A DNA stretch of 64,000 nucleotides from a phage: sequence record PZ166176.1; one strand, given 5' to 3'. The position numbers were made by a program, and so were the translations under genes. Shown piece by piece: positions 12,244-32,189 of the stretch (position 1 is its first letter; each line of letters opens with the position of its first letter). A model generated the notes under the pieces. The model saw only the letters and a list, made by a program, of their open reading frames with translations. It was not told the DNA's origin and did not search any database.

Positions 12244-12303
12244 CTTGCTTTATTTCTCCTGTTAACTTATAGTTATTGCGTAGGGCGAGCAATACAGCAA
12301 GCC
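12244..12303 (+). promoter_or_regulatory. PeSL-like cassette (variant)
   Basis: -35 CTTGCT, hairpin gtagggcgagcaatacagcaagccc. Confidence 0.5.
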
Positions 12304-12321
12304 CACAAAGAGGAAAAGAAG

Positions 12322-12690
12322 ATGAGCAAATCAGCAATTAAAGCACTTGAAAAAGCACAAGAAGTGATCGCAACGTCAACCACTGGCGCAAAGGTTAATC
12401 TCGTTGGTTATCTGGCAGATGAAACTATCCGTAAAAATTGGCGTAATGCTGATTTACTGGCTTGCTTATTGATTAATAGTGTCGCTAATGCTTTCCAGTG
12501 TGAAACAGCCGAGAGCCTGGAGGAAAACTTGTTTGATAATATGGATCAAGCCATTGAAACCTATATACAGTCAAACCTGGATAGCTGGAACAGTAAAACA
12601 TGGCCCGACAATTTACGCGATACAACTGATCAACTGATCCGCCTTGCCGTGATGGTTGAACGCGATAACGTTTACAACAGCACAAAGTAA
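12322..12690 (+). CDS. hypothetical early protein (122 aa)
   Basis: ORF with SD agaggaaaag. Confidence 0.65.
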   Translation: MSKSAIKALEKAQEVIATSTTGAKVNLVGYLADETIRKNWRNADLLACLLINSVANAFQCETAESLEENLFDNMDQAIETYIQSNLDSWNSKTWPDNLRDTTDQLIRLAVMVERDNVYNSTK

Positions 12691-13249: not shown

Positions 13250-13264
13250 TTGACAACAAAACAA

Positions 13265-13291
13265 GGGGCGCACCAAGCGCCCTTTCTTTTT
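13265..13291 (+). terminator. rho-independent terminator (GGGCGCACCAAGCGCCC family)
   Basis: gggcgcaccaagcgccc plus tttcttttt. Confidence 0.7.
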
Positions 13292-13498
13292 GCCCGAACA
13301 ATGTTGATAGCTTTCGCCTATGAAAAACCGACACAGAACAAAATTGAATAAATCGCGGTATCGAGCTAATCAACCATTAAACGAATAACCATACCTCCCA
13401 GGGTAACAGGCTGTTAGAGAGCCATTTATAGCGGTTAAAATCGATCAACAACCAACAACAAACCATCAAAAACACCCTTTTACCTCCTTTCTAGTGCA

Positions 13499-13516
13499 AT
13501 GATAACCATTATCATC
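13499..13516. promoter_or_regulatory. Fur-box-like palindrome
   Basis: aatgataaccattatcat. Confidence 0.4.
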
Positions 13517-14056
13517 TATCCATGTTTATCTATGCAATATAAGTGCATAACTATAATGTTGATAATAGTTCGCAACAACTAACTAACCAACAACCTAAAA
13601 CAATAAGCAAACTAATCATAATCAAAGGAATAATAGCAAGATGATTGATAACGACAAACAATCAAACCATGATGAATACTAAGCAAGATAACGATAACAC
13701 GACAAAACAACCAACTAACGAACAATAACAAACGAAACCATTAAAATAATAACTATTGCCATAATAGTGACTGAATGAAATCATTACAAAACGAATCATT
13801 CCCAGGATCATCATTAGCACGCTATGCCGGACACATAGCGAGCTAATAATAAGCCAACTACACCCCAACAATCATAACCATCGGTGATGGTTATTTCTTG
13901 TTACTGCGTAGCTTGCAATGATTGCAAGCGTAATGACGCTTACACTCATTGCGCTGGCTTATTATTAGCATTATATGTAATTACCAAGATCATAACATTA
14001 GCGCAATAACAATAATCATTGTAATGGTTACAATATGAAATCATTAGCATGGCAAT

Positions 14057-14212
14057 AATTATTGGGGGCAATGGGAGGATGATTATCATCATTCCGATAC
14101 ATTGCACACTATGCACATAATAGAATAAAAGTCAATAATTTTGGGGGCGAATACTATCGCGTAGCGATATGTTGAGCACTAAGAAAAGAGATAAACCTTA
14201 ATCATGGGGGCG
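14057..14212. repeat. three direct repeats of a TGGGGGC core
   Basis: attattgggggcaatggg (14057), aattttgggggcgaatac (14135), aatcatgggggcgtaaat (14198); a second direct repeat ATGTTGAGCA at 14165 and 14248. Confidence 0.5.
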
Positions 14213-14330
14213 TAAATATCCGAGGATTGCCAACGGCGATCCGGTAGGATGTTGAGCATCTTCTCTTAAACGTAAATAAAATCAGAAAATTCTTGATTTA
14301 TTATGGTTTTTATGTTAATAAATGTTTAAA

Positions 14331-14349
14331 TAATAATCATTCTCATATG
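14331..14349. promoter_or_regulatory. Fur-box-like palindrome
   Basis: taataatcattctcatatg. Confidence 0.4.
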
Positions 14350-14420
14350 AATAATAGTCTGCTTGTCATGAGCGGGATTAATTGACATTGTTCCGTCATA
14401 TGATGAAGTTGCCAAGCCAT

Positions 14421-14451
14421 TGATAAATAAGTGTTTGTGTGATTTATAATC
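14421..14451 (+). promoter_or_regulatory. sigma70-like promoter (TTGATA-N18-TATAAT)
   Basis: ttgataaataagtgtttgtgtgatttataat; candidate promoter for the block starting at 14868. Confidence 0.4.
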
Positions 14452-14507
14452 AAGTGGCCCACCTTGTCGCTATGTTGGCATGAGCCTTGCATAAGTCATT
14501 GAATACG

Positions 14508-14526
14508 AATGATAATTATTCTCATT
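14508..14526. promoter_or_regulatory. Fur-box-like palindrome
   Basis: aatgataattattctcatt, about 55 nt downstream of the candidate promoter. Confidence 0.45.
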
Positions 14527-14867
14527 CGCATGATATTTGGGAATTGTCGCTGCGTGGACCTGACGGCCCGAAAATTCGCGTTAAGCACTTCTTACGTATG
14601 CGCCATGATTTTTGCCATATCATATTGATTCTATTAGATATTCTTGCCGTGATTGCCATGAAACAGGGTGTCCCGAAATAATCTCTCCCCGTAGATATTT
14701 TGGGTTACTTTTTATACAAGAGTGGGGTGTCAAAAATAATCGGTATATATGGGATAATTGATAGGGAATACCAATGATAAATGAATTGTAATTGTCGAGG
14801 ATTGATCGTAGGATGTTGGTGATTGATGATTGCCATGAAAGATGGCTAACGATGAGAGGAGATTATC

Positions 14868-15242
14868 ATGCAAGAGAGTAAAAATGTTCCGTTGAGTAGT
14901 GCAACATTGCTTCGCTTCTATAAAGCATGGATTGCTAACTACCCTGCAATGAATCGCACAACGAGTGGCTTATGTGGTTGTCTGGTAGATTATGTAGATG
15001 ATTTTGTTGGTGAGACAACTAGAGAAGAAGATAGAAGATGGCGGGATAGTTTGTTAGACCGTTTGAAATATGAAATGAGGAAACAATTTACATGTGCAGG
15101 GCTGGACTACAATCTTCCGTTCAATGCAGATTGCATGGATTACCTTTCAGAGTGTATAAACTTGGCGTGTCATACCAACACGTTACGTCTTCAATGGGTG
15201 AAAGATCGTATTGAAGATGCAAATAATGCTTGCATTGAATAA
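14868..15242 (+). CDS. member A of a five-copy paralogous early family (GLC...PF...WVK motif)
   Basis: 124 aa; FYKAWI...GLCGCL...LPFN...RLQWVKD; paralogs at 18770, 22108, 24953, 26258. Confidence 0.7.
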   Translation: MQESKNVPLSSATLLRFYKAWIANYPAMNRTTSGLCGCLVDYVDDFVGETTREEDRRWRDSLLDRLKYEMRKQFTCAGLDYNLPFNADCMDYLSECINLACHTNTLRLQWVKDRIEDANNACIE

Positions 15243-15301: not shown

Positions 15302-15550
15302 ATGCATAACATGAAACGCATGAAAGTTCGTATAGAAGATCCGTGTGGGTATGAGGGATTAGAAGGTGCAACATTCCCACTCATCCTTGATGCTAAACTG
15401 GGTGACAAGGGGCTTGCCTATGTGCGATTCTCAACTATGATGCAAGTGGAAGGCTGGTGGTGGGATGAGGAAGATACGAAAGAAGGTCATGATTATAGTT
15501 TCTTCTCTCATGAGTATACGATTGTAGAGGAGACGAGTGATGATCTGTAA
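15302..15550 (+). CDS. small paralog family 2, member 1 (82 aa)
   Basis: KVRIEDPCGYEGL...FPLILDA...VEGWWWDEED..EG.DY.FF..EY.IV; paralogs at 15540 and 19480. Confidence 0.65.
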   Translation: MHNMKRMKVRIEDPCGYEGLEGATFPLILDAKLGDKGLAYVRFSTMMQVEGWWWDEEDTKEGHDYSFFSHEYTIVEETSDDL

Positions 15551-15758
15551 AATTCGTATTGAGCATAATTGTGGTTACTTAGGATTGCTTCATGTAGATT
15601 TTCCTGTTATATTGGATGCACATATTGGTTATGGCAGAAATGCATACGTGCAATTCACAACGATGAGCCATGTGCAAGGTTGGAAATGGGAAGAAGGGGA
15701 TACTGTTGAAGGAGGTGAGTATGTTTTCCTTCGTGATGAATATGAAATTGTCTATTAA
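15540..15758 (+). CDS. small paralog family 2, member 2 (72 aa)
   Basis: MICKIRIEHNCGYLGL...FPVILDA...VQGWKWEEGD..EG.EYVFL.DEYEIV. Confidence 0.65.
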   Translation: MICKIRIEHNCGYLGLLHVDFPVILDAHIGYGRNAYVQFTTMSHVQGWKWEEGDTVEGGEYVFLRDEYEIVY

Positions 15759-15761
15759 AGG

Positions 15762-16010
15762 TTGTGTGCAATGATCACACCACAACAGAATGAAGCAGCA
15801 ATGGATCTTCTTGATAGTTTGTATTTCGATAATTGGTACTCTGAATGTGAATGGATGAATATGCAAACTCTGAAAGAGAAGACAGAAGCGTTGATTACAG
15901 TAGATCAATTTCTTGCAGAGACGGAAAGAATGAATTATGATATGGCATCTCGCGCACGCCGCGCTTCCATCTTTAATAAAATGGTGGCATTATGGGGAGG
16001 TAGAAAATGA
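15762..16010 (+). CDS. hypothetical early protein (82 aa)
   Basis: ORF with SD. Confidence 0.6.
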   Translation: MCAMITPQQNEAAMDLLDSLYFDNWYSECEWMNMQTLKEKTEALITVDQFLAETERMNYDMASRARRASIFNKMVALWGGRK

Positions 16011-16474
16011 GCGAAAAACCAGTGAGAGCTTCCACAATATTGGAAGCATACCTGCAATGCGTTGTAGATTACGTCAAGAGAAACTCCAGCCTACTGGACG
16101 TCTACCGTGCAGATGATGGCGATGTTGGTATTGTCTATGTGAAACACACTTTATCCGCGCGTAATGAGGTTTTCCGTGCAAGTATGTTAGGGTGTGATCG
16201 TGTTCGTGTGAACTATTTGGACCCGAATTATCGCCATGCTCTTGAAGATATTGAAGATTATCTTCCTCGCTGCCCGACAGGTAATGCAAAAGTGGCAGAA
16301 GAAGCCCCACAAGGTGTTGATTATCGTGTAGCCTTGTGGAAAAAGGCACGTCAACTACAAGTGCTGAATGAAATGAAAGAAGAGATTGAAAAAGAACTGA
16401 AAGAAGATTTTGGTATGCTTCCAAAAGACGCTTTGAAATGGTATGATGAACTAGGAGGAGAAAGTTATGAATAA
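16007..16474 (+). CDS. hypothetical early protein (155 aa)
   Basis: Start overlaps the upstream stop. Confidence 0.65.
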   Translation: MSEKPVRASTILEAYLQCVVDYVKRNSSLLDVYRADDGDVGIVYVKHTLSARNEVFRASMLGCDRVRVNYLDPNYRHALEDIEDYLPRCPTGNAKVAEEAPQGVDYRVALWKKARQLQVLNEMKEEIEKELKEDFGMLPKDALKWYDELGGESYE

Positions 16475-16661
16475 AGGAACTACTGTATATTTAGTAACAA
16501 AGAATACCCCAGGCTGGAGCCAATGCAGCACTGTCCCTTACAAGATCTGTGCAACATTAGAACTAGCACAACGTGCAGAAGCAGAAGTGGATGCCATGCA
16601 ATACAGCTATGGTGAGATCATTCCTTTTACTCTTGAACAAGAAGGAGCACATCATGTTTAA
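16467..16661 (+). CDS. hypothetical early protein (64 aa)
   Basis: Overlap-coupled ORF. Confidence 0.55.
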   Translation: MNKGTTVYLVTKNTPGWSQCSTVPYKICATLELAQRAEAEVDAMQYSYGEIIPFTLEQEGAHHV

Positions 16662-17109
16662 AGTAGGGTTTACTTATAAATTCAAAAGCGTTGCTGACCA
16701 AGGAGATATGGCAACACATGACAAAGCAAATATTGCTGTTTGCCAAGCGATTGGAAACGAAGTTTTCAAAGTTATGAATACAGATGATAAGTATGGTCAT
16801 GTTCTTGAGTTTTATATCAATGGTACCCTCTATACAGCAGGTGTTACCCCAGGGTTTAATTCGTATACTTATTTGATTGATAACGAAGAATTTAAATATT
16901 TTGAAGAAGTAAAGGAGGAAACAATGGGTAAAGCAGAACCACAATGGCATGTTGTGATTGTAGGATCAGAGTGTGTAGATGTTTGTTCTAGTTTTGAAAA
17001 AGCTTCTGAAGTCGCTACAAAAGCTAAGAAGGATTATCCGTCGAAGACGGTTGAGATTTACGCTCGTGTTGCAGTAGCAAACGCCACAATCACTATTGAT
17101 AAGGAGTAA
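16654..17109 (+). CDS. tandem MFK-family protein 1 (151 aa)
   Basis: ATG 16654 with SD gaaggag; N-terminus MFKVGFTYKF shared with the two downstream genes. Confidence 0.65.
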   Translation: MFKVGFTYKFKSVADQGDMATHDKANIAVCQAIGNEVFKVMNTDDKYGHVLEFYINGTLYTAGVTPGFNSYTYLIDNEEFKYFEEVKEETMGKAEPQWHVVIVGSECVDVCSSFEKASEVATKAKKDYPSKTVEIYARVAVANATITIDKE

Positions 17110-17114
17110 AGCCA

Positions 17115-17570
17115 ATGTTCAAAGAAGGTCATGTCTACCGTTTCCAGGACGAAGATTATATGCGATTATATTCTACCTTTGATAACAGTATGGCTGCTAT
17201 CATTGGAGAGAATTTTTTCGAAGTGTTGAGCACTGATGCAAATGGTAATATCTTGTCAATTGTTGTGATAGGGAGAGACGGTGTTATCACTGCTAGTGAT
17301 GGGGATCGTTACATAATCAATTCTGCTCATATAGATTATTTTGTTGACGGTGGTATTCGTGGTGGTCGTGGAAAACCCCAAGAAGAACCTGTTGATACAA
17401 CAAAAGAAGAGTGGTATGTTGTAATGACTGATGACACCTGTATTTCTGGATTTGAAAGTTATGAAGAAGCTTTGAAAGAAGCAGCAGAGCATAAAATGGC
17501 TAATCCTACAGAAGAGGTTGAAGTTTATAAACGTTTGGTTGTTGCTACCATCGGCGTATCTTTTGTTTAA
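17115..17570 (+). CDS. tandem MFK-family protein 2 (151 aa)
   Basis: MFKEGHVYRF...; C-terminal W(H/Y)VV...V(E)VY block similar to gene 1. Confidence 0.65.
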   Translation: MFKEGHVYRFQDEDYMRLYSTFDNSMAAIIGENFFEVLSTDANGNILSIVVIGRDGVITASDGDRYIINSAHIDYFVDGGIRGGRGKPQEEPVDTTKEEWYVVMTDDTCISGFESYEEALKEAAEHKMANPTEEVEVYKRLVVATIGVSFV

Positions 17571-17581
17571 AAGGAGCTATT

Positions 17582-18019
17582 ATGTTCAAAGTTAATGCTG
17601 TTTACTGTTTCAAAAGTAAAGCTGCATGTGAAGCTTTCTCTATGATCTCTGATGAAAATTTCAAAATGGCAGCTTTGATTGAAGGGTCTTGTTTCCGCGT
17701 CGAAGATGTTAGTGAATCAGGGTCTGTTTGCTCATTGACTTTATTGGACAGCGGGGATATTATTGAAGCTGGACAGTATCCGTTCAGGAGTTGGGAGATA
17801 TTGTTAGCTCGCGGAGAGCGTAACTTTTTTATGTGCGTGTCTGCGGGGGAAGTTGTGAAAGAAACTAAGGATGTTTCTGTTTACAATTCTGAATTTATAA
17901 GTTATAGTGAGTATCAACATTTGGAAGGCATTGTTGGTCACTTGTTATCTCTGATTGACATTGAATGTGACCTGCCTGAATCATTGAAAGAAGAGTTGAA
18001 AGCATTAGATCTGTTATAA
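17582..18019 (+). CDS. tandem MFK-family protein 3 (145 aa)
   Basis: MFKVNAVYCF...; SD aaaggag. Confidence 0.65.
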   Translation: MFKVNAVYCFKSKAACEAFSMISDENFKMAALIEGSCFRVEDVSESGSVCSLTLLDSGDIIEAGQYPFRSWEILLARGERNFFMCVSAGEVVKETKDVSVYNSEFISYSEYQHLEGIVGHLLSLIDIECDLPESLKEELKALDLL

Positions 18020-18046
18020 TGTTTCGCACAACGAAAGGAGAATAAG

Positions 18047-18346
18047 ATGAATCTGACTGAACAGTTACGCCGTATTGCAAAAGAAGCTTCCTTCAACTTC
18101 CCTGTTGAAGAAGTGATCGAGACTTGTTTTGCTGAAGCACGAGCGGGAAACTCTTCAAGGAATTTCACGCCATCCGATTTTGGTTTGGATAATTCTCCTA
18201 CTCACCCAGGGGAAATCTACAATCAGGTGAAATGGATGGATGAAGCAGTAGCAATTCTTCGTGAGCGTGGGCTTATTGTTTATAAAGAAATGGATCTGAA
18301 CGGGGCATACGAGTGGATCACTATTGATTGGTCCGAGGTGAAATGA
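18047..18346 (+). CDS. hypothetical early protein (99 aa)
   Basis: SD aaaggagaat. Confidence 0.65.
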   Translation: MNLTEQLRRIAKEASFNFPVEEVIETCFAEARAGNSSRNFTPSDFGLDNSPTHPGEIYNQVKWMDEAVAILRERGLIVYKEMDLNGAYEWITIDWSEVK

Positions 18347-18579
18347 TGAAAGGTAACAAGATGAAAGTTAATCAAGTGCCGAGCGCATACACTTTATGGC
18401 TTGCGCGAGCGTTACACCAGACGATCAAAGACCCTAAGAAGCCAATGAAGAGTGGGAAGAAGTTTATGTCTAAGGGCAAAACAACCTTTGGCTTCACTCG
18501 TATGTCTGTCAAGATGAAAAGGCTGGGGTACAAGCCAAACTACGCTCGTTACCCTTCTGAATACAACTGGTTTGACTAA
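18343..18579 (+). CDS. hypothetical basic protein (78 aa)
   Basis: ATG 18343 with SD gaggtgaa; Lys-rich. Confidence 0.55.
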   Translation: MMKGNKMKVNQVPSAYTLWLARALHQTIKDPKKPMKSGKKFMSKGKTTFGFTRMSVKMKRLGYKPNYARYPSEYNWFD

Positions 18580-18592
18580 AAGGAGAAAGATT

Positions 18593-18769
18593 ATGGCTAC
18601 TTTTCAACAATTGAAAGATGTTTCACGTTTAGTAAGAAAAATCCGAGAAGCAGACGCTGCTGTGCGGAATGCATTAACGCCAGCAGAGCGTGAAGATCTT
18701 GAAGAGGAGGTGAAAACAGCCGAGAATGCTTTTGCTGTGTATCTTTCAACACTGTACACAGGAGGTTAA
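18593..18769 (+). CDS. hypothetical early protein (58 aa)
   Basis: ATG 18593 with SD aaaggagaaag. Confidence 0.55.
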   Translation: MATFQQLKDVSRLVRKIREADAAVRNALTPAEREDLEEEVKTAENAFAVYLSTLYTGG

Positions 18770-19084
18770 ATGTCAGAAGAACTTAAAGAGTTTTATCAGG
18801 CATATCATAACTGGCTGTTAGCTGGTGCTCCAGATAATAATCCTTTCTGGCATGATAAAGGATTATGTAGTTGCCTCTACCTTTGGACTGGTGGTTACGA
18901 TGATCTAAATTATGAAATGCAAATGCAATTTCGAGAAGCAGGGTTGTCTGAAGAATACCCGTTTGATGACGGAGACTGGTTTAAATATGATTTTGCACAA
19001 AGAAACGGGCTATTGCATTTGAATGCTGCCCGTATAAAATGGGTAAAAGATCATGCTACACAGGAGGATGTGCAATGCCAATAG
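18770..19084 (+). CDS. member B of the five-copy paralogous early family
   Basis: FYQAYHNWLLAGAP...GLCSCL...YPFD...RIKWVKD. Confidence 0.7.
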   Translation: MSEELKEFYQAYHNWLLAGAPDNNPFWHDKGLCSCLYLWTGGYDDLNYEMQMQFREAGLSEEYPFDDGDWFKYDFAQRNGLLHLNAARIKWVKDHATQEDVQCQ

Positions 19085-19275
19085 TGTTTAGTTTCTTGAT
19101 AATTGTTATGGTTGTTCTTTTCGCGGCATGGCTTTGGGATTTTGACCCAGGAGCAGCGCAGCAAAGAGCTACAGACTGGAAAGAACAATGTATTGTGCTC
19201 AAACATGAACGAAATGCGGAGAAATTTCTTGACCTAGAGTGTGATCGCCTTGTAAGATACAAGCAAGATAAATAA
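19075..19275 (+). CDS. small membrane-anchored protein (66 aa)
   Basis: ATG 19075 with SD caggagg; N-terminal transmembrane helix PIVFSFLIIVMVVLFAAWLW. Confidence 0.55.
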   Translation: MPIVFSFLIIVMVVLFAAWLWDFDPGAAQQRATDWKEQCIVLKHERNAEKFLDLECDRLVRYKQDK

Positions 19276-19289
19276 CCTTGAGGTGCAAA

Positions 19290-19478
19290 ATGGTAATAGA
19301 GATTAAACTTGAATATGCTGGGGCTGTTGCCCTGATCGCACAAACGCTTGGAGCAAAGATTGAAGAAGTGTATATCAATGCCTGGAGCGTAGAGATTGAT
19401 GTTCCTATGGACAACATCGCTAATCGCTTGCTGGTGGCAGAGTGTGAACGCACCAACATAATCTACAAAGGAGCATAA
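19290..19478 (+). CDS. hypothetical early protein (62 aa)
   Basis: ATG 19290 with SD gaggtgcaaa. Confidence 0.55.
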   Translation: MVIEIKLEYAGAVALIAQTLGAKIEEVYINAWSVEIDVPMDNIANRLLVAECERTNIIYKGA

Positions 19479-19479
19479 T

Positions 19480-19701
19480 ATGAAAATTAGAGTTTGCGAT
19501 GTATTGGGTTATGTTGGTTTTGAGAATGTTCAGATTCCTTTTGTTGTTGAAGCACATCTTGTTAGTGATGATATGACAACATTCTTTGTTACGATAGAAG
19601 AAATGTCCAAAGTTGAGGGATGGGAGTGGTTTGAAGAAGATGTTTGGGAAGGTTGTGATTACGTATTTTTCTCTGATGAAGTGAATGTTCTTTCGGAGTA
19701 G
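19480..19701 (+). CDS. small paralog family 2, member 3 (73 aa)
   Basis: MKIRVCDVLGYVGF...VEGWEWFEEDVWEGCDYVFFSDEV. Confidence 0.65.
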   Translation: MKIRVCDVLGYVGFENVQIPFVVEAHLVSDDMTTFFVTIEEMSKVEGWEWFEEDVWEGCDYVFFSDEVNVLSE

Positions 19702-21139: not shown

Positions 21140-21502
21140 ATGTCTAAAGATTTTGTTGAAGTGTTTGTCAAAGACGAAGAAACTGGTTTAGGCACAGGTT
21201 TCATTTGCGAAGAAACCTTTAAGCGTGAACAAGAAAAAGCTATTCTTATGCACCGCTATGATCACGCATTAGAACAATGGAAAAATGCAGAACAAAAATG
21301 CAAAAACCTTTACGCAGAAAATAGAAAACTACAAGATCAAATGGAGTTGTTAGCTATCAGTTTACGATCTCTCATTTTGGCTGTAGAAGATGGTTTTAAA
21401 AATCCAGATGGTTTTCCTGTGAGCGATATTGAGCATGATTTGTATCTTGCTCGTGGTGCTTACTTTTATGTTAAACAGAAGCCTGTAGAAGGAGAGAAAT
21501 GA
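21140..21502 (+). CDS. hypothetical early protein (120 aa)
   Basis: ATG 21140 with SD aataggag; possible coiled-coil. Confidence 0.6.
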   Translation: MSKDFVEVFVKDEETGLGTGFICEETFKREQEKAILMHRYDHALEQWKNAEQKCKNLYAENRKLQDQMELLAISLRSLILAVEDGFKNPDGFPVSDIEHDLYLARGAYFYVKQKPVEGEK

Positions 21503-21678
21503 TGGAAGAAAAACTGGAACGTATTATCGAGTTAGCCATGTCTATTGGCTACGACGATTGTTTTCTCCAAACTATTGGAGAAACACAGGACGATTACGAC
21601 TCTTGGGTGAAAGAGTTGGAAGAACTCAAAACTTCCTTGATTGCTGACTTTGCTGAAGCAGAGGAGGATGAATAATGT
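21502..21678 (+). CDS. 58-aa acidic small protein
   Basis: MMEEKLERIIELAMSIGYDD...; ATGA overlaps at both ends; below the track cut-off. Confidence 0.5.
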
Positions 21679-21904: not shown

Positions 21905-22117
21905 ATGTGGATTGTCCGTCTTAAGTATGATGGCAAGTTTCCGTGGGAGAAAGATGTTTGTGCCTGTGATTCAGCAGCACATGCCAAAGCAGCGGGTCAG
22001 GCAGTAGTTGACATGTATAACAACACTTCCGTTGATCCAGAAATGGCAGGTGTTACAATGAGCATGTTCACTTACTATTCTTTTGAGGTTTACTATCATG
22101 AAGGAGAGTGGAAATGA
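21905..22117 (+). CDS. hypothetical early protein (70 aa)
   Basis: SD ggaggaataag. Confidence 0.6.
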   Translation: MWIVRLKYDGKFPWEKDVCACDSAAHAKAAGQAVVDMYNNTSVDPEMAGVTMSMFTYYSFEVYYHEGEWK

Positions 22118-22434
22118 GCGAAGAACTATTAACATTTTACCGCACGTATTTGGCATGGTTGGAAGCTGGTGCTCCTGAAGGTGAACCGTTCACCCGTCGC
22201 ACAGGCTTGTGCTCAAACCTCTATGATTTTTACGACATGGGAGAAAGCGAACGATACGAACATGTACTGGATGAAATGCATGAGCAGTTCTACCTCAAAG
22301 ATTTGGTTATGGTGTTGCCTTTCAACAGTAATTTTGGAAAGTACACCTTAGAAGCGGAAAAAAGCCGTTGTCATTTGAATGTGGATCGTGTGAACTGGGT
22401 AAAAGAACGTGTAGCAGAAGAAATAATTGGTTGA
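22108..22434 (+). CDS. member C of the five-copy paralogous early family
   Basis: FYRTYLAWLEAGAP...GLCSNL...LPFN...RVNWVKE. Confidence 0.7.
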   Translation: MEMSEELLTFYRTYLAWLEAGAPEGEPFTRRTGLCSNLYDFYDMGESERYEHVLDEMHEQFYLKDLVMVLPFNSNFGKYTLEAEKSRCHLNVDRVNWVKERVAEEIIG

Positions 22435-24552: not shown

Positions 24553-24975
24553 ATGAAACAAGAAAATGAATCTGTAGATCACTTAATCATGCTGTCAGCC
24601 CTTTTTGCAGGATGGGACGTATTTTTTGAAAATTTGTTCAATTCTGCTACAGATGGTTCCGATTTTATGCGCCAATTTAAACAACGAACTGTTGAGGACT
24701 ATACCTTCTATTCAGGTCTGATTGAAAAAGGTTACGAAGATACAAATACAACACTCACCATTAAAGTTTTAGATGTGATGTTTAGTGTTATAGATGCTAT
24801 CGACGAAAGTCTTCCGATCCTAGACAATTGTAATACGAAAGTTTATGTTTACAAAATAGCTCGTGCTTATGTGTCTGCAAACAGTTGTCTTCTTTCCACC
24901 CAGATTGCCGTGAACAATCTTGCCAACTTGTTTGATGAAGGAGAAACTTTTTATGACAATCGATTTGAAGTGTAA
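24553..24975 (+). CDS. hypothetical early protein (140 aa)
   Basis: SD ataggagagg. Confidence 0.65.
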   Translation: MKQENESVDHLIMLSALFAGWDVFFENLFNSATDGSDFMRQFKQRTVEDYTFYSGLIEKGYEDTNTTLTIKVLDVMFSVIDAIDESLPILDNCNTKVYVYKIARAYVSANSCLLSTQIAVNNLANLFDEGETFYDNRFEV

Positions 24976-25318
24976 GAGGATTCTTTTAGATTTCTATAAT
25001 AATTGGTTAGAACACCTCCGTCTCTTTCCAAGAGAAAGTGGTTACGCTGATGTTGGCTTATGCCGAGGTCTGCGTATGTATATAAGTGATGAATTTCGGG
25101 CAGAGCATTCTTTAGCATATTCTGTTTATGGTATGCAATTAGCCAGTTTTGAAAACGCTGGCTTAGATACAACTTTCCCATTTAACACAGCAAAATCTTT
25201 TGAGCAAGAGTGTAAGGAAAAACGTTGCATGTTTAATGAAAAACGTGTACAGTGGGTTAAGGATCAAGTTAAACAACTGGAACAAGAGTTGGATTTCTTC
25301 TATGATGAGGCAGAATAA
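24953..25318 (+). CDS. member D of the five-copy paralogous early family
   Basis: ATG 24953 with SD gaaggag; LDFYNNWLEH...GLCRGL...FPFN...RVQWVKD. Confidence 0.65.
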   Translation: MTIDLKCKRILLDFYNNWLEHLRLFPRESGYADVGLCRGLRMYISDEFRAEHSLAYSVYGMQLASFENAGLDTTFPFNTAKSFEQECKEKRCMFNEKRVQWVKDQVKQLEQELDFFYDEAE

Positions 25319-26206: not shown

Positions 26207-26257
26207 TAGTTGCACCCCGTTCTGCGGGGTGTTATTGTATATGTAAAGGAGGCGCTA

Positions 26258-26596
26258 ATGTATTACACTGAAGACTACATACTGTATAACTTTTTTAAAG
26301 GCTGGTTGAAATGGGCTGAACAAGCTCCTGTCGGAGATTGTGTTTTTCCTTGGGATTCTCGTCAAGGTTTGTGTCGTTGTTTGGAAGATTGGCTTATAAC
26401 CACAAACTACAATTCAGAAACTAAGAAATCTACATCAAATCGATTAAAAATGTTGTTTGAAGAAGATGGTTTAGATCCAATTTATCCTTTCGGTGAGGAA
26501 AGTTTCCACAATGGTCTTTTCCTTGGCACTCAACATTATGATAAAGATCGTGTAGATTGGGTAAAAGAAAAGGTAGCACAGTATGAATGGGGTTAA
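26258..26596 (+). CDS. member E of the five-copy paralogous early family
   Basis: ATG 26258 with SD aaaggaggcg; FFKGWLKWAEQAP...GLCRCL...YPFG...RVDWVKE; hairpin caccccgttctgcggggtg upstream. Confidence 0.65.
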   Translation: MYYTEDYILYNFFKGWLKWAEQAPVGDCVFPWDSRQGLCRCLEDWLITTNYNSETKKSTSNRLKMLFEEDGLDPIYPFGEESFHNGLFLGTQHYDKDRVDWVKEKVAQYEWG

Positions 26597-29426: not shown

Positions 29427-30035
29427 ATGGAAGAGAAGATTTGGGATGGTAAAGATCCTTTAGAAGTTGGACACGTAGCGCGTGTCAAAAAATCTACTAC
29501 AGGTCCTGGTTTTTCTGGTTTGTATCATATACCAGAAGAAGGTCAGCACGTTACAATTTTGGCTCGTGACAAACAAAACGGAGCAACGCCTGTGTGGATT
29601 GTTCGTTGGTATGACAAAGATCTTAACATTTGCTTGTCACCTATTATGGCTCATTTGCTGGAAGCCCCTTGCTCTGAAGAAGCTCTAATTTTTGTTTCAG
29701 CTTTTCAGAAAGCCACAGGTTTAACATTAGATGCAAAAGATGTGCAAAAAGCATTTGACATTATTCAGGAAGACAACGATACTACATCTAACGACGAACT
29801 GGTTGAAGTTACAATCTTATCTTCAGCAGATATCCGAGAGATTGATAATTGTGATTTTCCAATCACATTTAAAATGTCGCAGAAAGACATACAGTCATCT
29901 GGAAGTTGTTTTGGTATACCTCGTTGGTTTTTTGATTCTATCAAAAATTCTACTACAGAGGGATCAGACTATGATCAAGATGACATGCTTTGGTTCTTAA
30001 AAAACCGAGAGATTGTTCTCTCACCACTTAAATAA
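29427..30035 (+). CDS. hypothetical early protein (202 aa)
   Basis: SD ttaggagg. Confidence 0.65.
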   Translation: MEEKIWDGKDPLEVGHVARVKKSTTGPGFSGLYHIPEEGQHVTILARDKQNGATPVWIVRWYDKDLNICLSPIMAHLLEAPCSEEALIFVSAFQKATGLTLDAKDVQKAFDIIQEDNDTTSNDELVEVTILSSADIREIDNCDFPITFKMSQKDIQSSGSCFGIPRWFFDSIKNSTTEGSDYDQDDMLWFLKNREIVLSPLK

Positions 30036-30044
30036 GGAGAAATA

Positions 30045-30146
30045 ATGGTTTCATTTATCGTAGGTGTAGTTGTAGGCTATCTTATTAACAAATATCAAGA
30101 CGTTATCACGGCAAAAGTAAAAGACATTTTAGACTCATCTAAATAA
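30045..30146 (+). CDS. 33-aa hydrophobic micro-protein
   Basis: MVSFIVGVVVGYLINKYQDVITAKVKDILDSSK; SD aaggagaaat. Confidence 0.45.
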   Translation: MVSFIVGVVVGYLINKYQDVITAKVKDILDSSK

Positions 30147-30198
30147 TCTATCAAAGCTGCATCTTCAATAGGTGCAGCCTTTTAAAAGGAGATATGGC

Positions 30199-30372
30199 AT
30201 GACTAAACGCACTGATTTTAAATGTATGCATTGTGGGAAATCTTTTGGGGATCATCAAGCTCGCACATTCAACTGTCCACGTAAAGGTCGCGGAAATTTT
30301 AAAGGTTTTAATCCCGCACATGTTTATTCTCCAGATTACGATAAGCCAGAAGAAGAAAAATTTGTTATTTAA
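30199..30372 (+). CDS. small Cys/His protein, putative zinc finger (57 aa)
   Basis: ATG 30199 with SD aaaaggag; CMHCG...H...NCPRKG. Confidence 0.55.
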   Translation: MTKRTDFKCMHCGKSFGDHQARTFNCPRKGRGNFKGFNPAHVYSPDYDKPEEEKFVI

Positions 30373-30384
30373 TAAGGAGGTCAT

Positions 30385-30666
30385 ATGGAACTCGTTCAAG
30401 AATTGTATAATGCTTTAGGAGCAAAAGGAAAAGATTGGCCCGAACATGCGCTTATTGCTATAAGAGACTCCGATGGTGAGATTAAGTTTTCAAGCGTAAG
30501 TAAAGAGCACATCGTAGAAACAAAACTGGGTATTTACATGCGTGGAACTTATTGCTTATTCAACACCAGAATGGTAGAAGCTCCTGTTATTGAAGATGGG
30601 ACAAAAGATTGCCCCACAATCGTAACAAAAGCTGAATATGAGAAGTTTTTCTACGCTAAGGCTTGA
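30385..30666 (+). CDS. hypothetical early protein (93 aa)
   Basis: SD ataaggaggtc. Confidence 0.65.
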   Translation: MELVQELYNALGAKGKDWPEHALIAIRDSDGEIKFSSVSKEHIVETKLGIYMRGTYCLFNTRMVEAPVIEDGTKDCPTIVTKAEYEKFFYAKA

Positions 30667-30710
30667 CACAGAAACAATACTATAGGATAGTGATCCTATC
30701 GTAGCAATAG

Positions 30711-30733
30711 AACCCGCTTCGGCGGGTTTTTTC
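30711..30733 (+). terminator. rho-independent terminator
   Basis: aacccgcttcggcgggtt plus tttttc. Confidence 0.75.
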
Positions 30734-30757
30734 ATATCTGTAGCAATAGGAGGTCGT

Positions 30758-30988
30758 GTGTTAAATAAAATCGAAGAAGGTTGTATGGCATTTTTGGTAG
30801 ATAACCCGTTTCCCTTTATGGTTAAGGTCCATGTAGGAGAGTATTTAGGTTACGACGAATGGGATTGTAGTATCAATAGTGAAATGCACCACTACCAACC
30901 AACAATACTTAAGACGGATCAAATGGCGCGTATTACAGTAGAGGATGAATTGATCATTGAGTTATACGAGAGAGCACTACACAAGTAA
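30758..30988 (+). CDS. hypothetical protein (76 aa), last plus-strand gene
   Basis: GTG start after SD aggagg. Confidence 0.55.
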   Translation: MLNKIEEGCMAFLVDNPFPFMVKVHVGEYLGYDEWDCSINSEMHHYQPTILKTDQMARITVEDELIIELYERALHK

Positions 30989-31031
30989 GCTAGAACCCAC
31001 CTAAATCGAACAGAGACGCTCTAAAATAGAA

Positions 31032-31060
31032 AAGGCACCCACTTGGGTGCCTTTGTTTTA
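31032..31060. terminator. bidirectional terminator at the convergence of plus and minus transcription
   Basis: aaggcacccacttgggtgcctt with T/A runs on both sides. Confidence 0.7.
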
Positions 31061-31330
31061 TTCTTCGTTAGATTGCGTCTCAGACGCGTTAAATTCGATT
31101 TCAGTACAACTTGCTAGGTAACTTATATTTTGCATCACTACAACTACAGGTGTTTGAAGTTTATCTTCTAACCCCGCAGCCACTTGAGCCAAGGCATTAT
31201 CAATATTTGATTTCCTAACGCCTGTTCCATGTCCTGTTGCCAAGTAAAGATTACCTTCCCCTTTTTGTGTAGCATTGGCAAAGTAGTAAACGTAATGTGC
31301 AAGGTAGTAATCACGGATTTCTTCAGTCAT
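31058..31330 (-). CDS. hypothetical protein (90 aa)
   Basis: SD aggagaat upstream on minus. Confidence 0.6.
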   Translation of the reverse strand: MTEEIRDYYLAHYVYYFANATQKGEGNLYLATGHGTGVRKSNIDNALAQVAAGLEDKLQTPVVVVMQNISYLASCTEIEFNASETQSNEE

Positions 31331-31337
31331 TTTATTC

Positions 31338-31366
31338 TCCTAATAAGAAAGGGGCCGAAGCCCCTT
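31338..31366 (-). terminator. UUCG-tetraloop GC hairpin with T-rich tail (terminator or attenuator after Sir2)
   Basis: Minus strand reads GGGGCTTCGGCCCC then tttcttatt. Confidence 0.5.
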
Positions 31367-31373
31367 GAGTGGT

Positions 31374-32189
31374 TTATTTGTTTAAGTGGTCTTCGACCAT
31401 TTTAATGAAACCTTCATTGCTGAAGGCTGTTGCAGCTTTTTCTCGGTAAACAAAAACTCCACGATCTTCATAGAGAAGTGTTTCTTCGTAATTAACTCCA
31501 GGGTTAACTACAACCATTTTTGTACCCATACTAAGTGCAGGAAATAATTCCCAATTAAAATTGATAACTTGGTTTGAACACCCTACTACTACAACCAAAT
31601 CTTGCATGGTCAAAGTATCGAACAAGTGAGCCATATCTGCATACAAAGGTGCAGCCTCACCAAAAAATACAACATTAGGCTTCACCCAGTTATAATCATC
31701 TATGTTTATACTATTGTAACCAATATCTACCAGTGTTTTGTAATCTCCAGGATGCATACGGTAAACTACTTCAGGAAGATATCCGTGCACGTGAATAACA
31801 GAATCTCTGTCTACACCTGCTCGCTCTAGTAGATCATCAACGTTTGTTGTCAAGTTTACTACTTGGTTAGGATATTCTTTAAACCATTTTGCTATTTGAA
31901 TATGTGCAGCATTAGGCTGTACATCTTTAAGTTCAACACGTCTTTTGTTATAAAATTCGTGTGTTTTGGCATACAAATCCATACCGTTCTCGTCTACACC
32001 ACCGACCACTGGAAGATCTGGAGATGTTCTAACACGATAACCTGCCTGGAAAGCTCCAATATCGCAGACCTCTTCTAAATCATATTCTTCCCATAAGGCA
32101 CGACCACTATCGGTGTCTGTTCGGAATGTTCTAATCCCACTATCTGCACTTAAACCTGCACCGCTTACAAAAATCACTCGTCTTGGCAT
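31374..32189 (-). CDS. Sir2-family protein (CobB-like NAD-dependent deacylase or NADase)
   Basis: VIFVSGAGLSADSGIRTFR, ALWEE, NLTTNVDDLLERAG, VIHVHG match sirtuin/CobB motifs; the Cys4 zinc-ribbon module appears absent. Confidence 0.8.
   Translation of the reverse strand: MPRRVIFVSGAGLSADSGIRTFRTDTDSGRALWEEYDLEEVCDIGAFQAGYRVRTSPDLPVVGGVDENGMDLYAKTHEFYNKRRVELKDVQPNAAHIQIAKWFKEYPNQVVNLTTNVDDLLERAGVDRDSVIHVHGYLPEVVYRMHPGDYKTLVDIGYNSINIDDYNWVKPNVVFFGEAAPLYADMAHLFDTLTMQDLVVVVGCSNQVINFNWELFPALSMGTKMVVVNPGVNYEETLLYEDRGVFVYREKAATAFSNEGFIKMVEDHLNK

What the first reader, a model, noticed from the sequence alone, without database searches (positions are those of the whole stretch)
15302..19701. Additional tandem and dispersed paralog sets in the early operons
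Three 72-82 aa proteins (15302, 15540, 19480) share KIR(I/V)...GY.G...FP.ILDA...V.GW.W.EED..EG..Y.F...EY.IV. Three consecutive 145-151 aa genes (16654, 17115, 17582) share the N-terminus MFK(V/E)(G/N).(V/T)Y.F and C-terminal blocks. Repeated local duplication of early genes indicates rapid turnover.
Basis: seen in the sequence. Interest (0 to 1): 0.4.

Follow-up and report, generated by a model that had tools for sequence, protein, structure and literature searches.

The report
Two small early-gene families, coliphage
Six small genes at the start of an E. coli phage's presumed early region form two real but old gene families, one related to the T4 protein GoF and one uncharacterised, which is an ordinary feature of large lytic phages.

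Summary
The window is a phAPEC8-like coliphage (Phapecoctavirus). All six ORFs are real genes: each has a GGAG ribosome-binding site, 94-100% identical orthologues in other phages, and dN/dS of 0.06-0.28.

Family A (15302, 15540, 19480) is significant in every pairing (E 1e-14 to 1e-24, 37-53% identity).

Family B (16654, 17115, 17582) shares an N-terminal domain of about 90 aa. Only B1 and B2 share the C-terminal domain; B3 has a different one.

B's N-domain is homologous to the N-terminal domain of T4 GoF (hhalign 93%, E 2e-7). B1-B3 also hit the PHROGs that hold GoF and Frd.2. This is the phage "LSm-like/SH3-like" family described in 2025 for Tevenvirinae, here found in another subfamily. 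Its wild-type function is unknown.

Family A has no Pfam or PDB relative. It has about 50 cluster representatives among 1.8 billion proteins, and every phage or viral contig I traced it to is a roughly 130-160 kb phAPEC8-like phage. In other phages the domain is fused to a helical C-module.

The duplications are old: paralogues share no nucleotide similarity and dS is saturated. "Rapid turnover" applies only to gene content, through copy number (1-3), chimeric collapse of the tandem pair, and domain swaps.

Low to moderate interest.

The parts
15302..15550 (+). A1, 82 aa, family A (phrog_15322-type acidic beta-rich domain); first gene of the tandem pair
   Evidence: ORF. SD GAGGAG 6 nt upstream. 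blastp to A2 and A3. PHROG E 5.5e-29. This allele (>=95% identity) occurs in only 4 of 112 phage records. dN/dS 0.18 against ZCKP1.
15540..15758 (+). A2, 72 aa (73 if the GTG at 15537 is used), family A; overlaps the end of A1 by 11 nt
   Evidence: Orthologue in ZCKP1 at 96% identity. dN/dS 0.16.
19480..19701 (+). A3, 73 aa, family A; dispersed copy 3.7 kb downstream and the most widely conserved member
   Evidence: PHROG 15322 E 2.5e-44. 64 of 112 phage records carry it at >=95% identity. dN/dS 0.11-0.14.
16654..17109 (+). B1, 151 aa: GoF-like N-terminal beta-barrel domain (aa 1-86), disordered linker (aa 89-93), beta-beta-alpha-beta C-domain (aa 98-138)
   Evidence: AF2 model, pLDDT 87. hhalign of the family profile to T4 GoF NTD: 93%, E 2.4e-7. 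phrog_3710 and phrog_622 hits. Present in 24 of 55 records.
17115..17570 (+). B2, 151 aa, same two-domain architecture as B1
   Evidence: blastp to B1 E 1e-14. phrog_3710 E 1.5e-31. The C-domain HMM hits only B1 and B2. The phAPEC8 allele has a 94% identical N-domain but a 32% identical C-domain.
17582..18019 (+). B3, 145 aa: GoF-like N-domain plus a different C-terminal region (phrog_22975)
   Evidence: Leave-one-out HMM E 7e-6 and hhalign 92%. phrog_622 E 7.8e-10 and phrog_22975 E 3e-100. 97-99% identical orthologues in ZCKP1, phAPEC8 and anhysbys.

Best explanation
These are two families of small, acidic, non-structural proteins at the head of the presumed early region of a phAPEC8-like (Phapecoctavirus) myovirus.

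Family B is a tandem trio of modular proteins. Each has an N-terminal domain of about 90 aa: a five-stranded SH3/LSm-like beta-barrel with a two-helix insert. This domain is homologous to the N-terminal domain of T4 GoF, and B1-B3 hit the same PHROGs as GoF and Frd.2. A flexible linker joins it to an exchangeable C-terminal domain (beta-beta-alpha-beta in B1 and B2, a different one in B3).

Family A is three copies of a beta-rich acidic domain of about 70 aa. I traced it only to phAPEC8-like phages of roughly 130-160 kb. In other phages the same domain is fused to a conserved helical C-module or to a second A domain.

Shown:
- paralogy of both families;
- homology of B to GoF;
- the two-domain architecture of B;
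- purifying selection on all six genes;
- old divergence of the paralogues;
- copy-number variation, chimeric collapse of A1/A2, and N/C domain swapping among related phages.

Inferred: the paralogues arose by ancient tandem duplication and were kept because each diverged in specificity. They probably act as dispensable host-takeover factors. For B, the conserved N-domain would be the binding module (RNA, or a host protein of RNA metabolism, by analogy with GoF(D25Y), which stabilises mRNA), and the variable C-domain would supply specificity or effector function. For A, the domain would be a protein-binding module that either works alone or carries a helical partner domain.
For: Genome identity: 94-98% nucleotide identity to Phapecoctavirus genomes.

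Paralogy.

Real genes:
- SD sites upstream of every start.
- Orthologues at 94-100% identity.
- dN/dS 0.06-0.28.

B is GoF-like:
- hhalign of the B profile against T4 GoF gives 93%, E 2.4e-7, over B1 residues 2-85 and GoF residues 5-89. Eight unrelated T4 early proteins used as controls all scored <=1.5%.
- T4 GoF and Frd.2 both fall in phrog_622 and hit phrog_3710, the same PHROGs that B1-B3 hit.
- The AF2 model (pLDDT 87) has five strands plus two helices, a low-confidence linker, and a separate C-domain.
- There are 74 BFVD structural matches at E<1e-3. The named ones are mostly T4-like phages, often several per genome.

Domain swaps in B: P0023 is 95%/20% identical to B1 in the N/C domains, P0020 is 51%/93%, and P0022 is 94%/32% to B2.

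Family A distribution:
- 52 hits among 1.84e9 representatives, 48 after removing 4 repeat-protein artefacts. 19 of them carry the helical C-module, and some are A-A fusions.
- tblastn hits in 112 phage records. All that I inspected are Stephanstirmvirinae.
- One IMG/VR locus, on a 148.7 kb contig.

Age of the duplications: no nucleotide similarity between paralogues and dS 1.4-2.1.
Against: No function was tested, and the wild-type function of GoF itself is unknown. Only the D25Y mutant stabilises RNA; wild-type GoF and MotB.1 do not (PMC12152347).

The matches to MotB.1 (E 1.4e-3, 17%) and Frd.2 (5%) are in register but not significant.

The family A structure model is unusable (pLDDT 42), so its fold is only guessed from sequence pattern.

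Acidity does not discriminate, because most neighbouring ORFs also have pI 4.4-5.1.

'Early' is positional inference. The promoter scan is only weakly enriched (34 found against 24.3 +/- 4.6 expected).
Confidence: 0.75

Rival explanations
1. Recent, ongoing tandem duplication (a gene 'accordion'): the copies were made lately in this lineage, and they reflect rapid amplification under selection.
For: The arrangement is tandem and the spacing is very tight (A1/A2 overlap by 11 nt; B1-B2-B3 are separated by 5-11 nt). Copy number differs between close relatives.
Against: Paralogues share no nucleotide similarity. dS is saturated at 1.4-2.1, and protein identity is 23-54%. Every paralogue has its own 94-100% identical orthologue in other phages, so the duplications predate the divergence of these phages. 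Copy-number differences are explained by loss and chimeric collapse.
Confidence: 0.07
2. Allele stacking rather than in-genome duplication: the A1-A2 pair (and possibly B1) was assembled by recombination between co-infecting related phages. This placed two diverged alleles of the same locus side by side.
For: A1 is closest to the single-copy phAPEC8-type allele at the same position (63% against 50% for A2). A2 is closest to the Justusliebigvirus allele (56-60% against 49-53% for A1). The A1-type allele occurs in only 4 of 112 records, while 51 carry a single allele 60-63% identical to A1, most probably at the same upstream position. B alleles are demonstrably mosaic at the domain linker.
Against: The identity differences are small and rest on about 70 residues, and no phylogeny with support values was made. 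An ancient duplication followed by differential loss gives the same pattern.
Confidence: 0.2
3. One or both families are anti-defence proteins (for example acidic DNA mimics or inhibitors of a host immune system). The paralogues would be diversified to counter different defence variants.
For: The proteins are small, strongly acidic (net charge -6 to -15), early-region and dispensable-looking, with presence/absence variation and modular shuffling. These features are typical of counter-defence loci by established knowledge, not by any test made here.
Against: There is no similarity to any characterised protein in Pfam or the PDB, and no anti-defence library was available. Neighbouring ORFs are equally acidic. 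The orthologues are under purifying rather than diversifying selection.
Confidence: 0.15
4. Chance similarity, or non-coding ORFs.
For: None beyond the short length of the family A proteins.
Against: E-values run from 1e-14 to 1e-24. PHROG matches reach 1e-44. SD sites are present, orthologues are conserved, and dN/dS is well below 1.
Confidence: 0.01

Closest known systems
T4 GoF / Frd.2 / MotB.1 'phage LSm-like fold' family (Kim et al. 2025, PMC12152347; PHROGs 622, 3710, 5347)
   Same: Family B has the same architecture: an N-terminal bent five-stranded beta-barrel of 80-90 aa, a flexible linker and a variable C-terminal domain. It shows significant profile homology to the GoF NTD. It hits the same PHROGs as GoF and Frd.2. 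Its nearest solved folds are the same, FeoA/DtxR SH3-like. Both occur as several paralogues per genome, and both lie in early regions.
   Different: The family was described as one of Tevenvirinae, whereas here it is in Stephanstirmvirinae. Here the three copies are tandem, whereas T4's three are scattered. The B1/B2 C-domain (beta-beta-alpha-beta, about 45 aa) shows no detectable sequence similarity to GoF's (BC profile against GoF: 0.3%). Matches to MotB.1 and Frd.2 alone are not significant. B1 scores below the Pfam FRD2 cut-off (15.4 against 29 bits).
PHROG 15322 / 13367 (unknown function)
   Same: Family A members match phrog_15322 end to end (E 2e-23 to 3e-44) and match phrog_13367 weakly.
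   Different: These PHROGs carry no annotation. There is no Pfam family and no solved structure. The fusion partners found here (the helical C-module and the A-A tandem fusions) appear in no library or paper that I searched (Pfam, PDB, PHROG annotations; literature).
FeoA / DtxR C-terminal SH3-like domains; Hfq/Sm fold

Membership tests
Phage GoF/Frd.2/MotB.1 LSm-like family (PMC12152347) | Sequence-profile homology to the GoF N-terminal domain | tested here: met
   hhalign of the B-family profile against T4 GoF gives 93%, E 2.4e-7, over residues 2-85 and 5-89. Eight control T4 proteins scored <=1.5%. GoF, Frd.2 and B1-B3 all hit phrog_622 and phrog_3710.
Phage GoF/Frd.2/MotB.1 LSm-like family (PMC12152347) | N-terminal bent five-stranded antiparallel beta-sheet of about 80-90 aa | tested here: met
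   AF2 model of B1, pLDDT 87: strands at 7-10, 38-43, 50-55, 58-61 and 83-86, plus helices at 13-22 and 24-33. This is a prediction, not an experiment.
Phage GoF/Frd.2/MotB.1 LSm-like family (PMC12152347) | Flexible linker to a C-terminal domain that varies between members | tested here: met
   pLDDT <50 at residues 89-93, and a separate C-domain at 98-138. B3 has a different C-terminus. N- and C-domains have independent histories.
Phage GoF/Frd.2/MotB.1 LSm-like family (PMC12152347) | Nearest solved folds are FeoA-type SH3-like domains | tested here: met
Phage GoF/Frd.2/MotB.1 LSm-like family (PMC12152347) | Significant similarity to MotB.1 and Frd.2 individually | tested here: inconclusive
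   MotB.1: E 1.4e-3, probability 17%. Frd.2: probability 5%. Both alignments are in register.
Phage GoF/Frd.2/MotB.1 LSm-like family (PMC12152347) | Early expression; effect on RNA stability | not testable with these tools
   No expression or biochemical data. Even for T4 only the D25Y mutant shows the RNA effect.
Pfam FRD2 (PF03197) | Score at or above the gathering threshold (29 bits) | tested here: not met
   B1 scores 15.4 bits and B2/B3 have no hit. T4 Frd.2 itself scores 133 bits.
Pfam DUF2782 (PF11191) | Score at or above the gathering threshold (26.8 bits) | tested here: not met
   B1 scores 22.5 bits, E 1.3e-4; B2 and B3 have no hit.
PHROG 15322 (family A) | Full-length profile match | tested here: met
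   E 5.5e-29, 1.8e-23 and 2.5e-44, each covering the whole 73-position profile.
Hfq/Sm proteins proper | Sm1/Sm2 motifs, ring oligomer, close structural match to Hfq | tested here: inconclusive

The most novel reading that the evidence does not exclude
The A domain is a previously undescribed protein module. It has no Pfam or PDB relative, about 50 cluster representatives in 1.8 billion proteins, and was traced only to phAPEC8-like phages. It works as a portable N-terminal binding domain, found alone, doubled, or fused to a conserved helical effector module. Together with the GoF-like B proteins and their swappable C-domains, it would form a modular 'adaptor plus exchangeable effector' toolkit, which these phages use to retarget host RNA metabolism or immunity. 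The paralogues would then be specificity variants.
Probability: 0.15. Interest if true: 0.5.

Novelty: new member of a known kind. Interest (0 to 1): 0.27.

Why it matters
It gives a name and a fold to three 'hypothetical' genes carried by phAPEC8-like therapeutic-candidate coliphages: GoF-like, with an SH3/LSm-like N-domain. It also extends the recently defined GoF/Frd.2 family beyond T4-like phages.

The natural domain swaps and the tandem trio are ready-made material for asking what the conserved N-domain binds and what the variable C-domains contribute. Family A is flagged as an uncharacterised, taxonomically narrow domain with informative fusion partners.

None of this overturns current views. 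Multi-copy, modular, dispensable early genes are expected in large lytic phages.

Tried and rejected
1. Structure of family A. AF2 on a 12-sequence alignment gave pLDDT 42, which is unusable, and no fold search was run on it.

2. I guessed that window ORF 21499-21675 might be a free-standing copy of the helical C-module that is fused to A domains elsewhere. An HMM of the module finds nothing in the window (best E 1.0). Rejected.

3. A relationship between the A domain and the B N-domain, or with GoF, MotB.1 or Frd.2. hhalign probabilities were <=1.5%. Rejected.

4. PDB sequence search with the A profile. The best E is 0.14, to a mitoribosomal protein, which is noise.

5. Pfam on 41 A-family homologues, including the C-module. 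Only sporadic sub-threshold hits (DUF7438 in 4 members, best E 2e-4).

6. The first two word-index homologue searches returned only close relatives.

7. The IMG/VR scan failed with the broad A alignment. With the narrower alignment it gave one locus.

8. The AFDB50 fold library was unavailable.

10. Literature searches for work on phAPEC8/Phapecoctavirus early genes or anti-defence genes found nothing specific.

11. The annotations 'putative capsid protein', 'ea8.5' and 'ankyrin repeat protein' in the EF1-1 and SF1-1 records are unsupported by any search here.
Full report
**What the window is.** Region 15302-19701 is 94-98% identical in nucleotide sequence to genomes of phAPEC8-like coliphages: Phapecoctavirus, subfamily Stephanstirmvirinae, myoviruses of about 150 kb. 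There are 126 matching records. The six ORFs lie in a run of small, tightly packed + strand genes. That run begins after a terminator-like hairpin (13263-13285) and a 1.6 kb ORF-free stretch. phAPEC8 and phage alia have the same layout. 'Early region' is therefore a positional inference, and no expression data were available.

**Checking the observation.** All six ORFs are present as described.

Family A pairs are 37-53% identical, with blastp E-values of 3e-14 to 1e-23.

In family B, B1-B2 align over their full length (26%, E 1e-14). B1-B3 align only over the first 85 residues (E 7e-4), and B2-B3 is not significant pairwise. An HMM built from B1, B2 and their orthologues alone still recovers B3 at E 7e-6 among 670 six-frame ORFs, and hhalign gives 92% probability.

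No further members of either family exist in the 64 kb window.

Several results show these are real genes.
- Every gene has a GGAG-type Shine-Dalgarno 5-9 nt upstream. For A2 it favours ATG 15540.
- Each paralogue has orthologues at 94-100% identity in other phages.
- dN/dS between orthologues is 0.06-0.28, and 0.49 for a mosaic B2 allele.

**Family B is GoF-like.** PHROG scans tie the N-terminal ~90 residues of all three proteins to phrog_622, 3710 and 5347, with weaker hits to PHROGs labelled 'goF mRNA metabolism modulator'. T4 GoF and Frd.2 themselves fall in phrog_622 and hit phrog_3710.

A profile of the B family aligns to T4 GoF residues 5-89 with hhalign probability 93%, E 2.4e-7. Eight unrelated T4 early proteins used as controls score <=1.5%. 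MotB.1 (17%) and Frd.2 (5%) align in register but not significantly.

The AlphaFold2 model of B1 (pLDDT 87) has three parts: a five-stranded barrel with two inserted helices (residues 1-86), a disordered linker (89-93), and a beta-beta-alpha-beta C-domain (98-138).

In BFVD the model has 74 matches at E<1e-3. The named ones are mostly T4-like phages, often several per genome.

Family B is thus a new lineage of a known family, outside Tevenvirinae. One GenBank annotator had already labelled a B homologue 'goF ... of RB69'. Pfam membership is not met: FRD2 scores 15.4 against a 29-bit cut-off, and DUF2782 scores 22.5 against 26.8.

**Family A is uncharacterised and narrow.** It has no Pfam hit and no PDB sequence relative. 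It has no relationship to B or to GoF. It matches only PHROGs of unknown function.

A profile search of 1.84 billion cluster representatives found 52 hits, four of them repeat-protein artefacts. tblastn finds it in 112 phage records, and all those inspected are Stephanstirmvirinae. An IMG/VR scan gave one locus, on a 148.7 kb contig.

Many homologues are longer than the window's copies.
- 19 carry a conserved helical C-module (…RKDKLISLVKDYG.AI.DGCYESECG…EEEKRLLKEIIKMIEEGV).
- P0054 and P0058 are A-A fusions, and P0036 is an A-A fusion that also carries the C-module.
- That C-module is absent from this window.

The AF2 model of A3 was unusable (pLDDT 42). The sequence pattern suggests about five short strands, but the fold is unknown.

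**History of the copies.** Paralogues share no nucleotide similarity, and dS between them is saturated at 1.4-2.1. Each paralogue is a separate, conserved orthologous lineage. The duplications therefore predate the divergence of these phages.

Gene content, in contrast, is fluid. HMM counts in related early regions are:

| Phage | Family A copies | Family B copies |
|---|---|---|
| this window | 3 | 3 |
| ZCKP1 | 3 | 2 |
| phAPEC8 | 2 | 2 |
| anhysbys | 1 | 3 |
| phiWec188 | 2 | 2 |
| alia | 1 | 1 |
| Klebsiella phi1_175008 | 2 (long forms) | 0 |

Other signs of turnover:
- The A1-type allele occurs in only 4 of 112 records.
- B1 occurs in 24 of 55 records.
- P0006 and P0008 are A1/A2 chimeras with different crossover points, so the tandem pair collapses by recombination.
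- P0031 fuses A1 residues 1-52 to a B-type C-domain.
- B alleles swap domains at the linker. P0023 is 95%/20% identical to B1 in the N/C domains, P0020 is 51%/93%, and P0022 is 94%/32% to B2.

A1 is nearer the phAPEC8-type single allele, and A2 is nearer the Justusliebigvirus allele. Assembly of the pair by recombination between phages ('allele stacking') therefore cannot be excluded.

**Mechanism.** Shown: two families of modular, selected, small acidic proteins, with old divergence and recent gain, loss and shuffling.

Inferred: they are dispensable host-takeover factors. For B, the conserved SH3/LSm-like N-domain is probably the binding module, for RNA or for a host protein of RNA metabolism. 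This is by analogy with GoF(D25Y), which stabilises gene 41 mRNA post-transcriptionally. Wild-type GoF and MotB.1 showed no such effect, and T4 mutants are viable. The exchangeable C-domain would set specificity or effector activity.

For A, the fusions point to a portable N-terminal binding module. An anti-defence role is possible for either family but has no direct support. Acidity is shared by most neighbouring ORFs, and selection on the orthologues is purifying.

**Verdict.** This is an ordinary feature of large lytic phages. The useful additions are that B belongs to the GoF-like family and shows natural domain swaps, and that A is a narrow, undescribed domain with informative fusions. 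It is a new member of a known kind, of low to moderate interest.

Noticed in passing
window 14868-15242, 18770-19084, ~22102-22431, ~24971-25315, ~26243-26593 (+ strand): A third and larger paralogue family (phrog_2510, unknown function, no Pfam) has five copies in the window and 1-8 in the early regions of related phages. Pairwise E-values reach 4e-18. A family C gene lies next to or near a family A gene repeatedly (14868/15302; 18770...19480; A-C-A in Klebsiella phage phi1_175008). This hints at an old segmental duplication of a C-A cassette.
   Followed up: partly
window 13263-14868: A terminator-like hairpin (13263-13285) is followed by a 1.58 kb stretch with no convincing ORF. The stretch is conserved at 93-97% nucleotide identity over >=80% of its length in 49 phage records. 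It has no Rfam match, only short imperfect repeats, and high AT skew. phAPEC8 and alia have equivalent gaps just upstream of the same operon. It may be an early-promoter or regulatory region, or lie near the genome terminus, since several GenBank records start close to it.
   Followed up: partly
proteins P0029, P0035-P0038, P0042, P0043, P0046, P0051, P0064, P0068, P0072; locus L007 8722-9177; L009 5953-6378: A conserved helical module of about 55 aa (…RKDKLISLVKDYG.AI.DGCYESECG…EEEKRLLKEIIKMIEEGV) is fused C-terminally to the A domain in other phages. It has no significant Pfam match and no copy in this window.
   Followed up: partly
protein P0031 (141 aa, metagenomic): This is an apparent fusion of A1 residues 1-52 to the C-terminal domain of the phAPEC8-type B protein. 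It implies a deletion joining the two families, or else an assembly artefact.
   Followed up: no
window 18328-18579 and 12244-12687 (+ strand): The only strongly basic ORF of the block (83 aa, pI 10.4) has a weak match (29% over 48 aa, E 0.001) to an ORF upstream of the terminator. This may be another dispersed pair.
   Followed up: no
window ~30000-32000: GC skew flips from about +0.14 to +0.24 to about -0.2 here. This fits a switch from + strand to - strand transcription units at the end of the long block of small + strand genes.
   Followed up: no
GenBank records PQ571289.1 and PQ571307.1 (phages EF1-1, SF1-1), matched region: Genes in this block are annotated 'putative capsid protein', 'protein ea8.5' and 'putative ankyrin repeat protein RF_0381'. 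Nothing in the Pfam, PHROG or structure searches supports these names for the A or B genes.
   Followed up: partly
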